DNA of 31,436 nt. Origin: Promethearchaeota archaeon. GTDB taxonomy: Archaea; Asgardarchaeota; Lokiarchaeia; Sigyniarchaeales; SOKP01. Position 1 is the stretch's first letter, and each line of letters opens with the position of its first letter. Where the stretch lies: positions 1-31,436 of the forward strand of contig JABCSY010000047.1 of the NCBI GenBank assembly GCA_018238625.1, read 5' to 3'. The notes below the pieces were generated by a model. That model saw only the letters and a program-made list of their open reading frames with translations. It was not told where the DNA came from and made no database searches. Positions 3,044 to 23,741 of the stretch are shown here, piece by piece. The position numbers and the translations under genes are program-made.

Positions 3044-3745
3044 AGTTCGCCTTATTATGATTTATTTATTTTTAATCAATTCAAGATAGATTGTCTTTAT
3101 TTATAAAATATACACTTTTGGAAAATGAGAGATAAAAATGTTAAATTATTCTTTAAATCATGATTTCTTAAATTCCGATAACAGATTCACCGAATTTTGC
3201 GAAATATAGTATATTTTTGTTCAAAATTCAAAATTGACTATTGCTAAATAGAGATACTTCGCTTCAAGGGTATCTTTCTCCTTTTTCAGTTGTTCTATCT
3301 CATTTTTAAAGGCGTAGTCCTTTTCTTGGAGTTCCGAGTCTTTAGCTTTTAATTGGACCACTTGACTCTTAATAACGCGCTCCAACTTTTTCCTTTTTTG
3401 TCTGAACATGCAATGCCAGAGAGTGGGTATTCCGACGACGAGAATTGAGAATAAGTGCCATAGACCCATATTATAACGAAGGCACTAGAAGATATAAATG
3501 TTATGGTTAGAAAAAGATAATTAAGGATCAAAAAACTTAGTATTTACAAAGATTTAAATAATAATCTGACAAAATTAAAAACAATTGTCCAAAATCAAAA
3601 TTCTAAGATAAATATGAAAAATGTCCATAAAATAAAAAATAAAAAAAAGTTAAGAATTTTAATATTATTAGCATTAGTTATTTTTAATCTAAACACTTTT
3701 ATCCTTAATCTCTATGATAATAATCCAACCTCTAAAGAATCTACT
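2903..3745. repeat. Imperfect inverted repeat formed by the homologous 5' ends of the two divergent surface-protein genes (2903-3025 vs 3638-3745)
   Basis: [10 protein letters not shown]...[13 protein letters not shown] vs KKKLRILILL...NLYDNNPTSKEST; 53/66 nt identical in the core and 35/39 in the last block by manual alignment. Confidence 0.85.
3221..3469 (-). CDS. Small hypothetical protein (hydrophobic N-terminus plus short coiled coil)
   Basis: 82-aa ORF: hydrophobic stretch, RQKRKK, then a K/E-rich heptad-like region; no recognised family. Confidence 0.4.
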   Translation of the reverse strand: MGLWHLFSILVVGIPTLWHCMFRQKRKKLERVIKSQVVQLKAKDSELQEKDYAFKNEIEQLKKEKDTLEAKYLYLAIVNFEF

Positions 3746-6700
3746 TGGTCTGATAAGAATATTAAAATGAGTACCAACCATGCCCCAATTCATATTAATG
3801 GGTATATTAGTGGGAATTGGTCCGCTGCAAAAGCCGCAGGAATTTGCACAGGTTCAGGAACATATAATGACCCTTATATAATTGAAAATTTTGAAATAGA
3901 TGGGGGAGGGTCGGGAAGTGGTATAATAATTGAAAACTCTGACGTCTATTTTAAAGTCGAGAACTGCACAGTTATCAATTCAGGATCACAATCTAATGAT
4001 GCGGGAATCTATTTATACAACATTGATAATGGACAATTGATTAATAATACCTGCTCAAATAATAATAATTATGGGATACTTTTAGATTGTTATAATAATA
4101 ATAACACTATTTCCGGAAACACCGTAAATAGTAACGCTCTTGTTGGGATATATTTAAATTATTGTAGTAATAATAACACAATTTTTAATAATACATGCTC
4201 AAATAACAGGATTTTCGGTATATATTTATGGTATAGTAATAATAACATAATTTCCGGAAACATCGCAAACAACAATGGTAGTGGGATACATTTAGCTTAT
4301 AGTAATAATAACACTATCTCTAGAAACATCGCAAATAACAATGATCATTATGGGATATATTTATATAATAGTAATAAAAACACTTTGAAAGGAAATTTAA
4401 TGATTGAGTGTGGAGTATATATCCAGGGTTCACTGGTAGAAACCTCTTCGCAAAATATTGATACTACAAATTTAGTGAATGGAAAACCATTATATTATTG
4501 CATCAATGAAACATTTTTAAAATCTAATAATTTTCCGAACGCAGGGCAGCTGATATTAGTTAATTGTAATGATTCATTAATAGTAGACTTAGATATCTCT
4601 AGTGGTTCATTAGGAATCTTATTATCTTATGGTAAAAATAACACAATTTCTAATAATACTTGCTCAAATAACAATTTTGGTGGGATAAAATTATATAATA
4701 GTAATAAGAACACTATTTCGGGAAATACCGTAAATAACAATTATGAGTATGGGATATGTTTAGATCATTATAGTAATAATAATACTATTTCCGGAAATAC
4801 CGCAAACAACAATTATTATGGGATAGAAATAAGTAATAGCGATATTAACACTATTTCCGGAAACACCGGAAACAACAATTCTGGGGGGATACGGTTATAC
4901 TATAGTAATAATAATACTATTTCTGAAAACACCGCAAACAACAATTCTAATGGGATATATTTAACTTATAGTAATAATAACACTATCTCTAGAAACATCG
5001 CAAACATAAATTTAGCTCATAGTAATAATAACACAATATATTTTAATAATCTCGTAAACAATACCAAAAATGTTTATTCTGTGGATTCAACCAATAAATG
5101 GAACTCTCCGGAAAAAATAGCTTACACCTACAGCAACAAAGATTACACGAATTATCTCGGCAATTATTGGGACAATTACACAGGAACTGATACAGATAAT
5201 GATGGAATTGGGGACACTCCCTACATCATTGAAGGAGATGAAAAAGACAATTTTCCATTGATGGAACCTTTTGAGAATTACCTAAAACCTTCAGCAGACA
5301 CTACGGCCCCAGCGGCAATAAATGATCTATCTATAAGCAATCCGACTGAGAATTCGATTACTTTGACATGGACTGCTCCGGGGGATGACGAAAATACAGG
5401 TACAGCTGCAGGTTATGTGGTAAAATACTCTATGTCGAGATCGATAAATGATTCCAACTGGGATTCGGCTACAACCTATGGTCAATCATGGACTCCGCTT
5501 ACTGCAGACAGTATCGAAACACATGTAGTTTCTGAATTTAGTCCCAATACACAATATTGGTTTGCCATCAAAGCCTATGATGAAATTCCAAATTATGGTA
5601 ACATCTCTAACAGCCCGAGCGGAAACACCTTACCATCGGAAGATAGCACTCCACCCGCGGCAGTTACAGATCTGTCTATAATAAATTCAACGAAAACTTC
5701 GATTACCTTATCATGGACGGCACCTGGCGATGATGGGAATATTGGTACATCAACTGGTTATATTATAAAATATTCGACCATAGGAACAATAAATGAATCA
5801 AATTGGGAAGAAATAACAGTTAATATATGGACAAAAGATAATGCGGTTGTTGCAGGTAATACTGAGATTTGTAAGGTTTTATTACTCAATTCTTATACTC
5901 ATTATTGGTTTGCTATAAAAGCCTACGATGAGGTTTTTAACTATGCTAATATTTCAAATAGTCCCAGTGGTAGTACTGTTCCTTGGTGGAGGCAAGATAT
6001 TCAAATAGGAGATATTTTATTACATAGAAGTTCTAATCCTCTGGGATGGGTCTTGAATTGGACTCATGCGGGTATATATGTTGGGAATTATTGTGTTGTA
6101 GAAGCCGAAAAGGATAAGGATGGAGGTATTAGATCTTATAATATATCTGATTGGGATTTTCCAAATGATACATACGTTTCACTGCTTCGCGTTGTATCGG
6201 CTTCGGTTGAGCAAAGAGAGGGTGCAGCCCAATGGGCTCTAGACCAAACAAAGAGGGTGCCCAAACCAAAATATTGGCTTGATTTTACAGGAAAAAGTTA
6301 TGATCCATCCACGGAGTCATGGTATTGTAGTGAGCTTGTGTGGGCGGCGTATATTAATCAACCAACAAACAATTATGTTTGGTGGGGCATTAATATTGAT
6401 ATGGGTGATGAAGGAGATGTTCCTATCACATGGGAACCCGTATCTCCTGATGATATATATAATGATAATGACACAAGAGTCATTAATGGACATTACGAAC
6501 ATTATCCTGAGGTTAAACCTTTTTTAATTATTAAAACTAATTGTCCAGTAGATCTGTTAATAATCGATCCAGATAATCTTCAGAGGGGTAAAGGGATATT
6601 CGAAATTCCAGACGCTTACTATTTAGAATATGATTTTAATCACGATGGTTCCCCTGACGATTTCATTCTTATACCCGACTTGAAAATAGGTAAATATTCA

Positions 6701-7012
6701 ATAACGGTAATTCCTGAATCTGGGGCACTCCCAACAGACACATATTCCCTTATAGTTTTATATGGTAACACAACGATCACATTAGCTCAAAATTTATCAA
6801 TTAACGATATTCCTAACGAACCCTATGTAATCAGATCAACAAGTGAGGGAATTTACTATGAACCACCGCAAAAATATGATGACTCCGTGAAATTATTATG
6901 GATTGATTCCATAATATTGACCATTATCATTACGGCTACTGCCTCCATTTCTGTAATAATTACGGTAATTATTATGAGGAAGAAAAAAAGGAACGATTTA
7001 GAAAAAAAATAG
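3614..7012 (+). CDS. Surface protein: NosD-like right-handed beta-helix, two fibronectin type III domains, permuted papain-like amidase (YiiX/YaeF, peptidase C92-like) and C-terminal TM anchor
   Basis: N-terminal signal/anchor. Many GIyL..SNNNTISGN.ANNN repeats ending in GNYWDNY...DNDGIGDTPY. Two FN3 units (ITLTWTAPGDD...YWFAIKAYDE) start at 5297 and 5642. GDILL...WTHAGIYVG...VVEA (His 6065-6067) precedes WYCSELVWAAY (Cys 6326-6328). Ends in a TM helix plus RKKKR. Confidence 0.9.
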   Translation: MKNVHKIKNKKKLRILILLALVIFNLNTFILNLYDNNPTSKESTWSDKNIKMSTNHAPIHINGYISGNWSAAKAAGICTGSGTYNDPYIIENFEIDGGGSGSGIIIENSDVYFKVENCTVINSGSQSNDAGIYLYNIDNGQLINNTCSNNNNYGILLDCYNNNNTISGNTVNSNALVGIYLNYCSNNNTIFNNTCSNNRIFGIYLWYSNNNIISGNIANNNGSGIHLAYSNNNTISRNIANNNDHYGIYLYNSNKNTLKGNLMIECGVYIQGSLVETSSQNIDTTNLVNGKPLYYCINETFLKSNNFPNAGQLILVNCNDSLIVDLDISSGSLGILLSYGKNNTISNNTCSNNNFGGIKLYNSNKNTISGNTVNNNYEYGICLDHYSNNNTISGNTANNNYYGIEISNSDINTISGNTGNNNSGGIRLYYSNNNTISENTANNNSNGIYLTYSNNNTISRNIANINLAHSNNNTIYFNNLVNNTKNVYSVDSTNKWNSPEKIAYTYSNKDYTNYLGNYWDNYTGTDTDNDGIGDTPYIIEGDEKDNFPLMEPFENYLKPSADTTAPAAINDLSISNPTENSITLTWTAPGDDENTGTAAGYVVKYSMSRSINDSNWDSATTYGQSWTPLTADSIETHVVSEFSPNTQYWFAIKAYDEIPNYGNISNSPSGNTLPSEDSTPPAAVTDLSIINSTKTSITLSWTAPGDDGNIGTSTGYIIKYSTIGTINESNWEEITVNIWTKDNAVVAGNTEICKVLLLNSYTHYWFAIKAYDEVFNYANISNSPSGSTVPWWRQDIQIGDILLHRSSNPLGWVLNWTHAGIYVGNYCVVEAEKDKDGGIRSYNISDWDFPNDTYVSLLRVVSASVEQREGAAQWALDQTKRVPKPKYWLDFTGKSYDPSTESWYCSELVWAAYINQPTNNYVWWGINIDMGDEGDVPITWEPVSPDDIYNDNDTRVINGHYEHYPEVKPFLIIKTNCPVDLLIIDPDNLQRGKGIFEIPDAYYLEYDFNHDGSPDDFILIPDLKIGKYSITVIPESGALPTDTYSLIVLYGNTTITLAQNLSINDIPNEPYVIRSTSEGIYYEPPQKYDDSVKLLWIDSIILTIIITATASISVIITVIIMRKKKRNDLEKK

Positions 7013-22365: not shown

Positions 22366-22611
22366 TTGGTAAAGATTGAGAAAAGAAAAGGAAAAACTGC
22401 GTATGATGCCTCTATTCCTGCCGAGGTTCTTCAAATTGTTGGTAGAACTGGTTTGACCGGCGAGATCAATCAAATTAAGGTTAGAATTCTTGAAGGGCCA
22501 GATAAAAATCGAATTCTTACGAGAAATGTTAAGGGGCCTGTACAAATTGCCGATATTGTTGTTTTAAGGGAAGTTGAAAGAGAAGCGCGAAAAATTCGTA
22601 AGCGAAGATAA
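22366..22611 (+). CDS. rps28e: 30S ribosomal protein S28e
   Basis: [25 protein letters not shown]...RNVKGPV...LREVEREAR; TTG start preceded by GGTGA. Confidence 0.96.
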
Positions 22612-22623
22612 TAATACTAATTT

Positions 22624-22748
22624 TTATTTTAATTCTACTTGGTCGAAGTATCCAAGCAGTTTCAGATTATCGTATTCCGTTTGTAAAAATTCTCGTACGG
22701 CAGTCCTTATAGCTTCAGATCTACTTGCTACTACTTTTTTTTTTATTA
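22624..22748 (-). pseudogene. Orphaned 3' half of the ribbon-helix-helix gene (IKKKVVASRSEAIRTAVREFLQTEYDNLKLLGYFDQVELK*)
   Basis: Collinear with the C-terminal half of 23544-23741 at a 905-bp offset; no start codon, and an in-frame TAA lies a few codons upstream. Confidence 0.85.
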
Positions 22749-22968
22749 TGTCATGGTAAGAACGTTAAGAATTGTTACCTATATAACTGCGAATAGGTTG
22801 ACAGTTCTCTATAATTCCGTTCCAACCACGCGTATTATAGCGTGTTAAAAAACACGAGTGCCACATAAAATTTTCCAGAATGCACTATCAAATAGAAAAA
22901 AAAAAGGATTAATTATAGATATTTATAATAGTTAGAAGAGTTGAATTTCTTGAAAATCTCGTAAACTC

Positions 22969-22997
22969 GCGGACTTTGCGGACTTTGCGGACTTTGC
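22969..22997 (+). repeat. Tandem 9-bp repeat (gcggacttt)x3
   Basis: gcggacttt gcggacttt gcggacttt gc, with a degenerate copy gcggatttt shortly downstream. Confidence 0.9.
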
Positions 22998-23092
22998 TCT
23001 GTTGATGAACCTTGACTGCGGATTTTGGGACCCCGAATTCTAAAATTCAATAAATTTACTAAGTGATTAAGTTTAAATACTAAAAAAGGTAC

Positions 23093-23473
23093 TTGATTAT
23101 CGTGAAAGATAAGAAAATTATCGCTTACAAAAACGAGCGGGTCAAGAAGTTTGCGTATAACCTAAGAAAACTCATTATCGATGTTGTCATGGGTGAGTGG
23201 AGTCGTTTAGGTGTTGTACAGAGGGGTAATCCTACTTCAGTATACCTTAAGATCGAGGACGAGCGCAGTGATCTGCTTAGAATGTTGAGAGCCTCCATCT
23301 ACGAATGCCCTTGCTGCCATCAAGCTGAGAGGGATATGTATTTCAACGGTCCCATGCAGGAATGGTTCTGTACCCAGTGCGTCCAAAAATATCGCGATTA
23401 TTACCAAAAACAAAAAGCTATTCACGGCGATCTTAAGGTGGATGACGACGATTTCTACGTAACTTTTTTGTGA
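23093..23473 (+). CDS. Hypothetical zinc-finger protein (CPCC...WFCTQC) carried by the putative mini-element
   Basis: 126-aa ORF with two CxxC knuckles; the exact start is uncertain (TTG at 23093 or GTG at 23102). Confidence 0.75.
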   Translation: MIIVKDKKIIAYKNERVKKFAYNLRKLIIDVVMGEWSRLGVVQRGNPTSVYLKIEDERSDLLRMLRASIYECPCCHQAERDMYFNGPMQEWFCTQCVQKYRDYYQKQKAIHGDLKVDDDDFYVTFL

Positions 23474-23543
23474 TTCATATGAGTTGCGTATGTTGAAGGG
23501 TCAATTTGAAAGAAGTGTGAAACTCGTTAGTTTTTCACGAGTG

Positions 23544-23741
23544 TTAGTCAAAGAACCCAAGCAGTTTCAAGTTTTCAACCTCTGCATGTAAGTATTCTCG
23601 TACGGCAGTCCTTATAGCTTCAGATCTGCTTGCTACTACCTTTTTTTTTATTAATTTTTGGATGTTATCATCGTATATCTCAGGTATGTTGATAGTTATG
23701 TTTTGCATTTTTGGTTTCTTCTCTTTTTTATCGTTTGGCAA
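23544..23741 (-). CDS. Ribbon-helix-helix (CopG/Arc/MetJ-like) DNA-binding protein
   Basis: MQNITINIPEIYDDNIQKLIKKKVVASRSEAIRTAVREYL fits the RHH consensus (beta strand, helix, SRSEaIR.A). Confidence 0.9.
   Translation of the reverse strand: MPNDKKEKKPKMQNITINIPEIYDDNIQKLIKKKVVASRSEAIRTAVREYLHAEVENLKLLGFFD

What the first reader, a model, noticed from the sequence alone, without database searches (positions are those of the whole stretch)
22624..23741. 905-bp mini-element integrated inside an RHH regulator gene and supplying a replacement C-terminus
Seen: the RHH gene's 3' half is present twice, 905 bp apart. A 60-bp block differs only at 2 synonymous sites, then the tails diverge but stay collinear (EYLHAEVENLKLLGFFD* in the intact gene vs EFLQTEYDNLKLLGYFDQVELK* in the orphan). 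Similarity stops abruptly at the A-tract ATAAAAAAAAA. Between the copies lie a Zn-finger ORF and repeats. Known: integrative elements that target coding genes carry a substitute 3' end. Inference: a protein-coding attB in an Asgard-like genome. The element lacks an integrase, so it is either a deletion remnant or a non-autonomous satellite; excision would swap the regulator's C-terminus.
Basis: partly seen in the sequence, partly recalled or inferred. Interest (0 to 1): 0.75.

Follow-up and report, generated by a model that had tools for sequence, protein, structure and literature searches.

The report
Leftover of a giant toxin island
This small insertion in an Asgard archaeon really does give a regulator gene a foreign tail, and it appears to be the shrunken remnant of a recombinase-less DNA island built around a giant surface protein tipped with a DNA-cutting domain, of which only the small partner gene, probably the antidote, has been kept.

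Summary
A 905-bp insert splits the RHH gene of a Promethearchaeota (Lokiarchaeia) genome: the intact gene carries a foreign tail, the orphan tail is the native one. An exact empty allele exists in a conspecific assembly, and the insert is assembled in other studies; 40 of 41 other genus genomes align unbroken across the site. No integrase is involved that I could find. The insert holds the last 18 codons of a left-end island gene, the last ~18 codons of a giant gene, and an intact Zn-ribbon gene with its own TATA box. In relatives this Zn gene sits directly behind 11,000-15,000-residue membrane-anchored proteins with a conserved body, a hypervariable last ~1,000 residues and an HNH-like fold, and it recurs alone in 0.5-0.9-kb inserts at unrelated gene ends. 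One complete 41-kb island has an 89-bp imperfect repeat, an empty site in relatives and no recognisable recombinase. Best reading (0.55): an orphan immunity cassette of an Asgard polymorphic-toxin system that moves by recombination through a carried gene end. Main rival (0.25): a decayed homing-endonuclease cassette. Toxicity, immunity and a circle are not shown.

The parts
22624..22748 (-). Orphan, native 3' end of the RHH gene (…REFLQTEYDNLKLLGYFDQVELK*), displaced by the insert; no start, no promoter
   Evidence: nearest relatives' single gene ends like this copy and abuts rps28e
22724..22734 (.). 11-bp stretch between the two synonymous differences; the exchange point lies here (copy at 23629-23639)
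   Evidence: X9 contig joins 22723 to 23629 with 11 letters fitting both sides
22749..22895 (.). Unique 147-bp left segment with an ~80-nt imperfect hairpin next to the A-tract joint; origin and role unexplained
   Evidence: no homologue in fetched loci or own genome; z about -3; 0-1 of 200 shuffles; no Rfam match
22913..22967 (-). Last 18 codons and stop of a 240-aa unknown gene ('p240') that lies at the left junction of related islands; followed by a T-run (likely terminator, inferred)
   Evidence: (86-88% over 71-78 nt)
22969..22997 (+). 9-bp unit x3.2 at the internal deletion joint between the p240 remnant and the giant-gene remnant
22990..23043 (+). Last ~18 codons and stop of the giant HNH-tipped gene (DFALLMNLDCGFWDPEF*)
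   Evidence: 76% over 54 nt to the remnant in G131, E 2.8e-4; 9 of 17 aa identical to the G141 tail, E 4.5e-4 against 20 tails
23072..23079 (+). TATA box TTTAAATA, 30 nt before the Zn gene
   Evidence: TATA-like word at -22 to -45 in 37 of 57 family members vs 64 of 600 control genes
23102..23473 (+). Intact 123-aa helical-hairpin + Zn-ribbon gene (CxxC…WxCxxC); cognate partner of the giant's HNH domain, putative immunity protein
   Evidence: pLDDT 92; dN/dS 0.05-0.28
23474..23543 (.). 70-bp spacer between the convergent Zn and RHH stops
   Evidence: sequence; no homologue
23544..23628 (-). Element-supplied RHH 3' end; foreign in its last 17 codons (YLHAEVENLKLLGFFD*), donor not found
   Evidence: best match 26 of 39 nt among 38 other sequence variants listed
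23544..23741 (-). Intact hybrid ribbon-helix-helix regulator gene, conserved in all relatives searched
   Evidence: 41 of 41 genomes have a match
22366..22611 (+). rps28e, convergent neighbour that defines the empty site

Best explanation
The 905 bp are an internally deleted derivative of a Lokiarchaeia giant-gene island. The full island encodes an 11,000-15,000-aa membrane-anchored adhesin-like protein whose variable tip is an HNH nuclease (a contact-dependent polymorphic toxin; inferred) and, right behind it, a small Zn-ribbon protein that neutralises it (inferred). Deletion fused the island's left end to the last codons of the giant gene (shown), leaving only the partner gene and its promoter, which is kept because it protects against neighbours that still carry that toxin type (inferred). 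The unit has no recombinase: it carries a piece of the target gene's 3' end from an earlier host and enters or leaves by one crossover inside that piece (exchange point shown; host RadA-type recombination and a circular intermediate inferred), so the target gene stays intact with a foreign tail. Confidence: anatomy and descent about 0.9, immunity role about 0.55, homology-driven mobility about 0.6.
For: Empty and filled alleles. Descent: both remnants; p240 lies at the left junction in 4 of 4 known places and [p240 remnant | partner gene] recurs in G016:C46 and G020:C94; two G020 contigs carry p240 and giant+Zn at the two sides of one G000 empty site. Linkage: 27 of 72 distinct Zn hits have a full HNH region within 1.2 kb upstream, 7 more a part; stop-to-start gap 32-118 nt in 17 pairs; all 15 pairs of loci with similar HNH regions also have similar Zn genes (Mantel rho 0.26, 8 of 5000). 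Giants; N-terminal TM clusters and hydrophobic segments 1,000-2,200 aa from the end; LamG domains over cut-off in 2 of 2 scanned; identity 41-74% until ~1,050 aa from the end, then mostly 14-39%; the cognate of the window's subtype is a giant fragment. Fold: top 13 VIA rows are Cap5, Cas9, IscB, McrA chains, best Z 6.0, rmsd 3.1, 94 aligned. Tandem Zn copies and an LRR alternative or fusion. Orphans arise at least 10 times on the tree, under purifying selection. Repeats: 7 of 34 orphans are flanked by a direct repeat (3 more are tandem gene copies) vs 7 of 300 controls; empty sites verified for 4 of the other 6. A 41-kb island with an 89-bp imperfect repeat is empty in G058 and G059 and has no recombinase hit.
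Against: No experiment shows toxicity or protection. The HNH Z-scores are middling and Foldseek's best E is 0.024; three of the four invariant catalytic-looking residues in my alignment were selected for, and the RHH motif was not found in 2 of 4 complete giants. One Zn subtype sits at the rps11 3' end in 7 of 7 cases beside a standalone ~550-aa HNH ORF that starts at the same point in two genera: hard to explain as a delivered toxin, natural for a homing nuclease. 24 of 34 orphans show no repeat, and some inserts replace host DNA instead, so one mechanism does not cover all. No secretion system was identified. The own genome has no intact giant (N-terminal part on C91, tip on C74). Loci were chosen by best hit and by hand, and kin are not independent. 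The first arrival at each new site is unexplained.
Confidence: 0.55

Rival explanations
1. Decayed homing cassette. The variable ~500-1,000-aa region plus HNH is a site-directed endonuclease that cuts the empty allele and is copied in with a recoded replacement gene end, as fungal mitochondrial mobile ORFs do; the Zn gene is its regulator or inhibitor. The window is a relic whose nuclease is gone.
For: Layout foreign tail / mobile ORF / native orphan tail is that described for Glomus and Allomyces (PMC3630166, passages). The 57-bp core in both copies and in the conspecific empty allele is more diverged from relatives (43-45 of 57) than relatives are from each other (49-51 of 57), like a conversion tract. 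rps11 subtype is site-faithful with a conserved standalone ORF and an HTH-looking N-terminus (by eye). Targets are conserved genes (rps11, rpoH, actin, RNase P RNA).
Against: The window's subtype occurs at 9 different sites in 11 loci, and two long proteins 59% identical over 1,188 aa sit at different sites. Its cognate nuclease is fused to a giant surface protein. No recoded 3' part or orphan copy of rps11 was seen. Homing does not explain why the partner gene alone is kept under purifying selection.
Confidence: 0.25
2. One reading: a protein-coding attB used by a tyrosine integrase; the insert is a remnant or satellite mobilised in trans.
For: Exact 905-bp empty site with an 11-bp exchange window; the genome has two tyrosine recombinases; RHH paralogues of this subfamily occur on virus-like contigs and could be the tail's source. 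An 11-bp att motif is reported for an Atabeyarchaeia element (PMC11529989, passages).
Against: The 11-bp window is only the gap between two SNPs in a 59-bp match. Repeats at other sites share no sequence and run from 31 to about 120 bp. No integrase in 96 island ORFs or in the complete 41-kb island. G016 has 9 Zn matches and 4 integrases, the nearest 16 kb away beyond host-conserved DNA. No viral contig with the Zn gene.
Confidence: 0.1
3. The Zn protein is itself the mobility factor of a single-gene selfish element (or inserts arise by retroposition with long target duplications).
For: It is often the only intact gene; upstream truncation points vary; repeats abut the gene in some cases.
Against: No conserved catalytic His or acidic residue (invariant columns S, 4 Cys, W); no shared termini; the window's repeat is a diverged foreign tail, not a copy of the target; tight coupling to HNH type.
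Confidence: 0.06
4. Local tandem duplication with decay, or an assembly artefact.
For: Genome contamination is put at 7.6%.
Against: Both alleles are assembled in independent runs; the functional copy, not the orphan, is the diverged one; the DNA between is foreign.
Confidence: 0.01

Closest known systems
Bacterial polymorphic toxin systems (CDI/Rhs type) and polyimmunity loci; Zhang et al. 2012, PMC3482391 (passages)
   Same: Long conserved body with a variable C-terminal nuclease, small adjacent partner gene, standalone tip cassettes, tandem and fused partner genes
   Different: Archaeal; 11,000-15,000 aa with multi-pass N-terminal anchor; variable part ~1,000 aa; tips sampled are all HNH-like; partner is an unnamed Zn-ribbon family; orphans are scattered singly at core-gene ends, not clustered beside a recombinase
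Fungal mitochondrial mobile ORFs with a foreign C-terminus (Allomyces atp6; Glomus atp6, atp9, cox2, nad3); PMC3630166 (passages)
   Same: Foreign tail in frame, mobile ORF, displaced native tail; donor unknown
   Different: There the ORF is the endonuclease; here the intact ORF is a Zn-ribbon gene and only 18 codons of an HNH gene remain; one subtype occupies many sites
Aloposons of Heimdallarchaeum; Wu et al. 2022, PMC8813620 (section 10 and passages)
   Same: Asgard mobile elements built on giant genes
   Different: Aloposons have two tandem 3,000-6,000-aa genes, tRNA sites and a MinD/ParA gene block; here one 11,000-15,000-aa gene, protein-coding or RNase P sites, nuclease tip plus partner gene. 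Homology not tested
Integrase elements that restore a split target gene (e.g. Yucahu-i and mini-Yucahu, PMC11529989, passages; e14/icd type, recalled)
   Same: Target end duplicated, gene restored, filled and empty alleles coexist
   Different: No integrase found, no common att core, repeats long and imperfect

Membership tests
Polymorphic toxin system | Conserved body, hypervariable C-terminal part | tested here: met
   four giants 41-74% identical until ~1,050 aa from the end, then mostly 14-39%
Polymorphic toxin system | C-terminal toxin domain | tested here: inconclusive
   HNH chains fill the top ranks but Z 6.0 at best; motif not seen in 2 of 4 giants (87); activity untested
Polymorphic toxin system | Export or surface display of the carrier | tested here: inconclusive
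   TM clusters, LamG and weak Ig-like hits; no delivery system identified
Polymorphic toxin system | Small cognate gene directly downstream | tested here: met
   Zn gene behind 3 of 4 complete giants (LRR gene behind the fourth); types coupled
Polymorphic toxin system | The downstream gene neutralises the toxin | not testable with these tools
   needs co-expression or binding assay
Polymorphic toxin system | Standalone tip cassettes and tandem or orphan partner genes | tested here: met
   (G114:C35, G006:C2, G016:C77, G060:C43)
Integrase-type integrative element | Integrase in the element or its full-length relatives | tested here: not met
   none in 96 ORFs at E <= 0.001, including the 7 non-giant ORFs of the complete 41-kb island (2 of them unannotated)
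Integrase-type integrative element | Shared att core across sites | tested here: not met
   unrelated repeats of 31 to about 120 bp
Integrase-type integrative element | Target end duplicated so that the gene is restored | tested here: met
Integrase-type integrative element | Free circle | tested here: inconclusive
   only contigs were available, and the 59-bp repeat hides a circle joint
Homing-endonuclease mobile ORF with replacement gene end | Foreign tail, mobile ORF, native orphan tail | tested here: met
Homing-endonuclease mobile ORF with replacement gene end | Intact endonuclease gene in the insert | tested here: not met
   only the last ~18 codons of the HNH-bearing gene remain; the Zn family has no conserved His (53)
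Homing-endonuclease mobile ORF with replacement gene end | One nuclease type, one site | tested here: inconclusive
   rps11 subtype 7 of 7 at one site; window's subtype 9 sites in 11 loci
Homing-endonuclease mobile ORF with replacement gene end | Cleavage of the empty allele | not testable with these tools
   needs in vitro cleavage
Aloposon | Two tandem giant genes of 3,000-6,000 aa | tested here: not met
   a single 11,220-14,832-aa gene in 4 of 4
Aloposon | Integration at tRNA genes | tested here: not met
   no tRNA in the window; neighbours of relatives are coding genes or RNase P RNA (relatives' loci not scanned for tRNA)
Aloposon | Upstream four-gene block with MinD/ParA ATPase | tested here: not met
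   none upstream of the four giants; one ParB-N protein 5 kb upstream in G090
Aloposon | Homology to Otus/Ephialtes | not tested
   sequences not in hand

The most novel reading that the evidence does not exclude
Lokiarchaeia giant proteins are contact-delivered nucleases that double as the mobility machine of their own island: the HNH tip breaks a neighbour's chromosome, and only cells that recombine in donor DNA carrying the Zn gene (with a replacement end of whatever gene it lands in) survive. That would be a recombinase-free gene drive between cells, joining toxin warfare and homing, that keeps swapping the tails of Asgard core genes.
Probability: 0.2. Interest if true: 0.9.

Novelty: new variant of a known kind. 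Interest (0 to 1): 0.72.

Why it matters
It points to an undescribed conflict system in the archaea closest to eukaryotes: some of the largest archaeal proteins, so far without a function, look like contact-dependent nuclease weapons with a dedicated partner gene present in 62 of 134 genomes of one family. It gives a small, expressible pair (250-aa tip, 123-aa partner) that makes Asgard cell-cell antagonism testable in a laboratory strain, and it shows a route of gene flow without integrase that exchanges the ends of conserved genes and can mislead gene trees.

Tried and rejected
Complex prediction of the G004 HNH region with its cognate Zn protein: score 0.00, 'no answer'; not evidence either way. 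Zn protein: no Pfam hit, weak PHROG and PADLOC hits only, no usable Atlas hit, no PDB sequence hit below E 0.068, fold searches gave only generic helical-hairpin matches, best Z 6.1 with rmsd 5.7; this does not show a new fold. HNH alignments found nothing in PDB by sequence. p240: no Pfam or Atlas hit. Viral contigs: 3 candidate stretches, none confirmed. Metagenome pattern for the core: 0; RHH scan: 35 loci, 12 close ones inspected, none with the insert. Donor of the tail not found. Recoding of rps11 in filled alleles: no clear GC3 step along the gene and no orphan copy in 7 larger loci, so my first impression from one GC-rich copy was dropped. Retroposition: one RT N-terminal fragment beside one locus only. 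Rfam: nothing in the insert. No hairpin at the exchange point. The parts of the insert not covered in runs X2 and X9 prove nothing. Two regex scripts printed no table (parts of 40, 98) and were redone. Makarova et al. 2019 on archaeal polymorphic toxins is not held; I know it only by recall and could not check whether it mentions these genes.

Full report
Setting. The window is contig C136 of a 4.29-Mb assembly. Two same-genus records are titled Promethearchaeota archaeon; 'Lokiarchaeia' is my recalled label for this group. The region is a ribosomal and tRNA-modification gene cluster.

Observation. The repeat, its spacing of 905, the two synonymous differences and both tails are as described. 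The three nearest relatives (G016, G020, G008) have one RHH gene abutting rps28e. Against them the 5' part matches at 83-86 of 90 nt, the orphan tail at 32-33 of 39, the intact gene's tail at 21-26 of 39. The orphan is therefore native and the working gene is a hybrid. Of 41 other genus genomes, 40 align in one piece across the RHH 3' end and rps28e; G003 gave two pieces and was not examined. Four runs from four studies were laid (contigs only, X1 may be the source and is set aside). X9 holds a 1,876-nt near-identical contig that skips exactly 905 bases, with the exchange point inside an 11-bp stretch. X2 covers the left junction, X3 the insert into the foreign tail; insert contigs have lower depth (3.4-6.7) than flanks (12-21), which suggests both alleles coexist, though depth is no share of cells. 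The 57-bp core, shared by both copies and the conspecific empty allele, is further from relatives (43-45 of 57) than they are from each other (49-51 of 57): a hint, not proof, of earlier conversion or in-out cycles.

Anatomy. From left to right the insert holds a unique 147-bp segment with a hairpin; the last 18 codons of a 240-aa unknown gene, p240, on the minus strand; a tripled 9-mer; the last ~18 codons of another gene on the plus strand; a TATA box; the intact Zn gene; a spacer; the foreign RHH tail. p240 was found in 2 of 154 genomes, three places, each at the left junction of an insertion relative to this genome's empty site. In G020 one contig carries whole p240 and cargo, another a giant-gene tip and a Zn gene, and the two abut the same empty site; that they are one island is inferred. 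G016:C46 and G020:C94 are further deletion derivatives with a p240 remnant.

The Zn family. It is found in 62 of 134 other genomes of the family and 0 of 19 in three other families, up to 10 matches per genome; 68 representatives at 50% clustering, unnamed or 'hypothetical' in the 10 looked up. Among 72 distinct hits in the loci I fetched (best hits plus hand-picked, some pseudogene pieces and tandem copies), 27 have a full and 7 a partial HNH-like region within 1.2 kb upstream. Of 34 without it and with enough flank, 7 lie between direct repeats, 3 more are tandem copies, 24 show none; controls 7 of 300. Empty sites were confirmed for four of the six others; two were not checked. Five members of the window's subtype keep 17-33 codons of the giant's tail. 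The gene has its own promoter (37 of 57 vs 64 of 600) and dN/dS of 0.05-0.28 in unsaturated pairs. The lone state needs at least 10 changes on well-supported branches (bootstrap not settled).

The parent gene. The upstream ORFs are pieces of giants: four complete ones of 11,220, 14,832, 12,736 and 11,373 aa, three followed by a Zn gene, one by an LRR gene. They have N-terminal transmembrane clusters, LamG domains in the two scanned, 41-74% mutual identity up to ~1,050 aa from the end and mostly 14-39% after. The cognate of the window's subtype (G004) is 34-36% identical to three of them over ~1,000 aa. A model of its last 253 aa has two strands and a helix around RHH…H and ranks HNH nucleases first (Cap5 Z 6.0, rmsd 3.1, 94 aligned; Foldseek best E 0.024). 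These scores are middling, my alignment was seeded on the RHH motif, and the motif was not seen in two of the four giants. HNH type and Zn type go together, which linkage alone also predicts.

Mobility. In G057 a 41-kb island (ABC exporter pair, two unknown ORFs, two winged-helix genes, giant, LRR) lies between 89-bp repeats at the rpoH 5' end; G058 and G059 are empty, and the island's copy resembles G058's allele. No integrase, transposase or relaxase was hit in 96 ORFs; host tyrosine recombinases are unlinked. Long, imperfect, site-specific repeats with one host-like and one foreign copy fit a single crossover through a carried gene end. How an island first reaches a new site is not explained, and several inserts have no repeat.

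Rival. An earlier unchecked note (e1-5573653) led me to homing cassettes. The window's layout matches the fungal mobile ORFs (PMC3630166, passages), and one subtype is faithful to rps11 with a conserved standalone HNH ORF. Against it, the window's subtype is at 9 sites in 11 loci, its nuclease is part of a giant, and rps11 shows no recoded end. I give toxin-immunity 0.55, homing 0.25, integrase in trans 0.1.

Literature. Ten searches returned no paper whose listing, or passages read, describe these giants as nuclease-tipped or this Zn family. Wu et al. 2022 (PMC8813620; section 10 and passages) describe aloposons and note unrelated Asgard giant genes; its Extended Data Fig. 7 and supplements, which I did not see, may list these proteins. 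PMC11573180 (passages) counts 12 Lokiarchaeota proteins over 5,000 aa and calls the LamG-type archaeal architecture not understood. PMC3482391 (passages) gave the defining features of polymorphic toxins. PMC11529989, PMC13700489, PMC6393860 and 10.64898/2026.08.12.739948 (passages only) describe nothing like it; supplements were not read and bioRxiv ones are closed. Subscription papers are largely outside the library.

Verdict. It works like an orphan immunity cassette of a polymorphic toxin system; membership is not established because toxicity and neutralisation are untested. New variant of a known kind; interest 0.72.

Noticed in passing
rps11 3' end in many family genomes (L105, L120-L124, L130, L235-L271): Hotspot: Zn gene with or without a 515-560-aa standalone HNH ORF and a divergent winged-helix gene; many 'empty' alleles keep short remnants; several rps11 genes are broken or at contig ends. 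Best candidate for a true homing nuclease.
   Followed up: partly
L231:3477-3718 and L229:3475-3623: Zn gene (with giant in G141, alone in G138) lies directly before the RNase P RNA gene.
   Followed up: partly
G000:C74:38572-40153, C200:6326-6550, C91:26012-35707: The same genome holds a 353-aa HNH tip plus Zn gene behind an actin-like gene, a Zn gene at rps11, and a 3,232-aa N-terminal piece of a giant.
   Followed up: partly
L109:6838-8301; L055:8557-10240; L144:13222-14898: Zn-LRR fusion, and LRR genes directly behind HNH tips: some Asgard LRR proteins may be immunity proteins.
   Followed up: no
L061 (G008:C431), L062, L194, L203, L204: RHH paralogues of this subfamily in clusters of three on contigs of many small co-oriented ORFs that look viral; possible source of the foreign tail.
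   Followed up: partly
L057:6643-7764 vs G000:C58 and L096: The G020 island sits at a gene's 5' end and the gene's first residues differ from the empty allele: a replacement 5' end; G140 has only a Zn gene at the same site.
   Followed up: partly
L094:7700-7900: Scrap that reads like an NAD-dependent DNA ligase fragment (recalled resemblance) upstream of an orphan Zn gene.
   Followed up: no
L107:3818-4243: Reverse-transcriptase N-terminal fragment (RVT_N) overlapping the start of a 1,403-aa giant tip.
   Followed up: no
window:2-3043 (-) and 3614-7012 (+): Divergent pair of large surface proteins: a papain-like protease with 75-bp (25-aa) repeats running off the contig, and a NosD/fn3/peptidase C92 protein.
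   Followed up: no
window:23998: Runs X1 and X2 carry 10 extra bases here relative to the window, just past the bud32 stop.
   Followed up: no
L132:2536-8254 (G016:C77): ThiF, JAB-like, ubiquitin-like and UFC1-like genes with TPR and LRR genes lie upstream of the giant gene.
   Followed up: no
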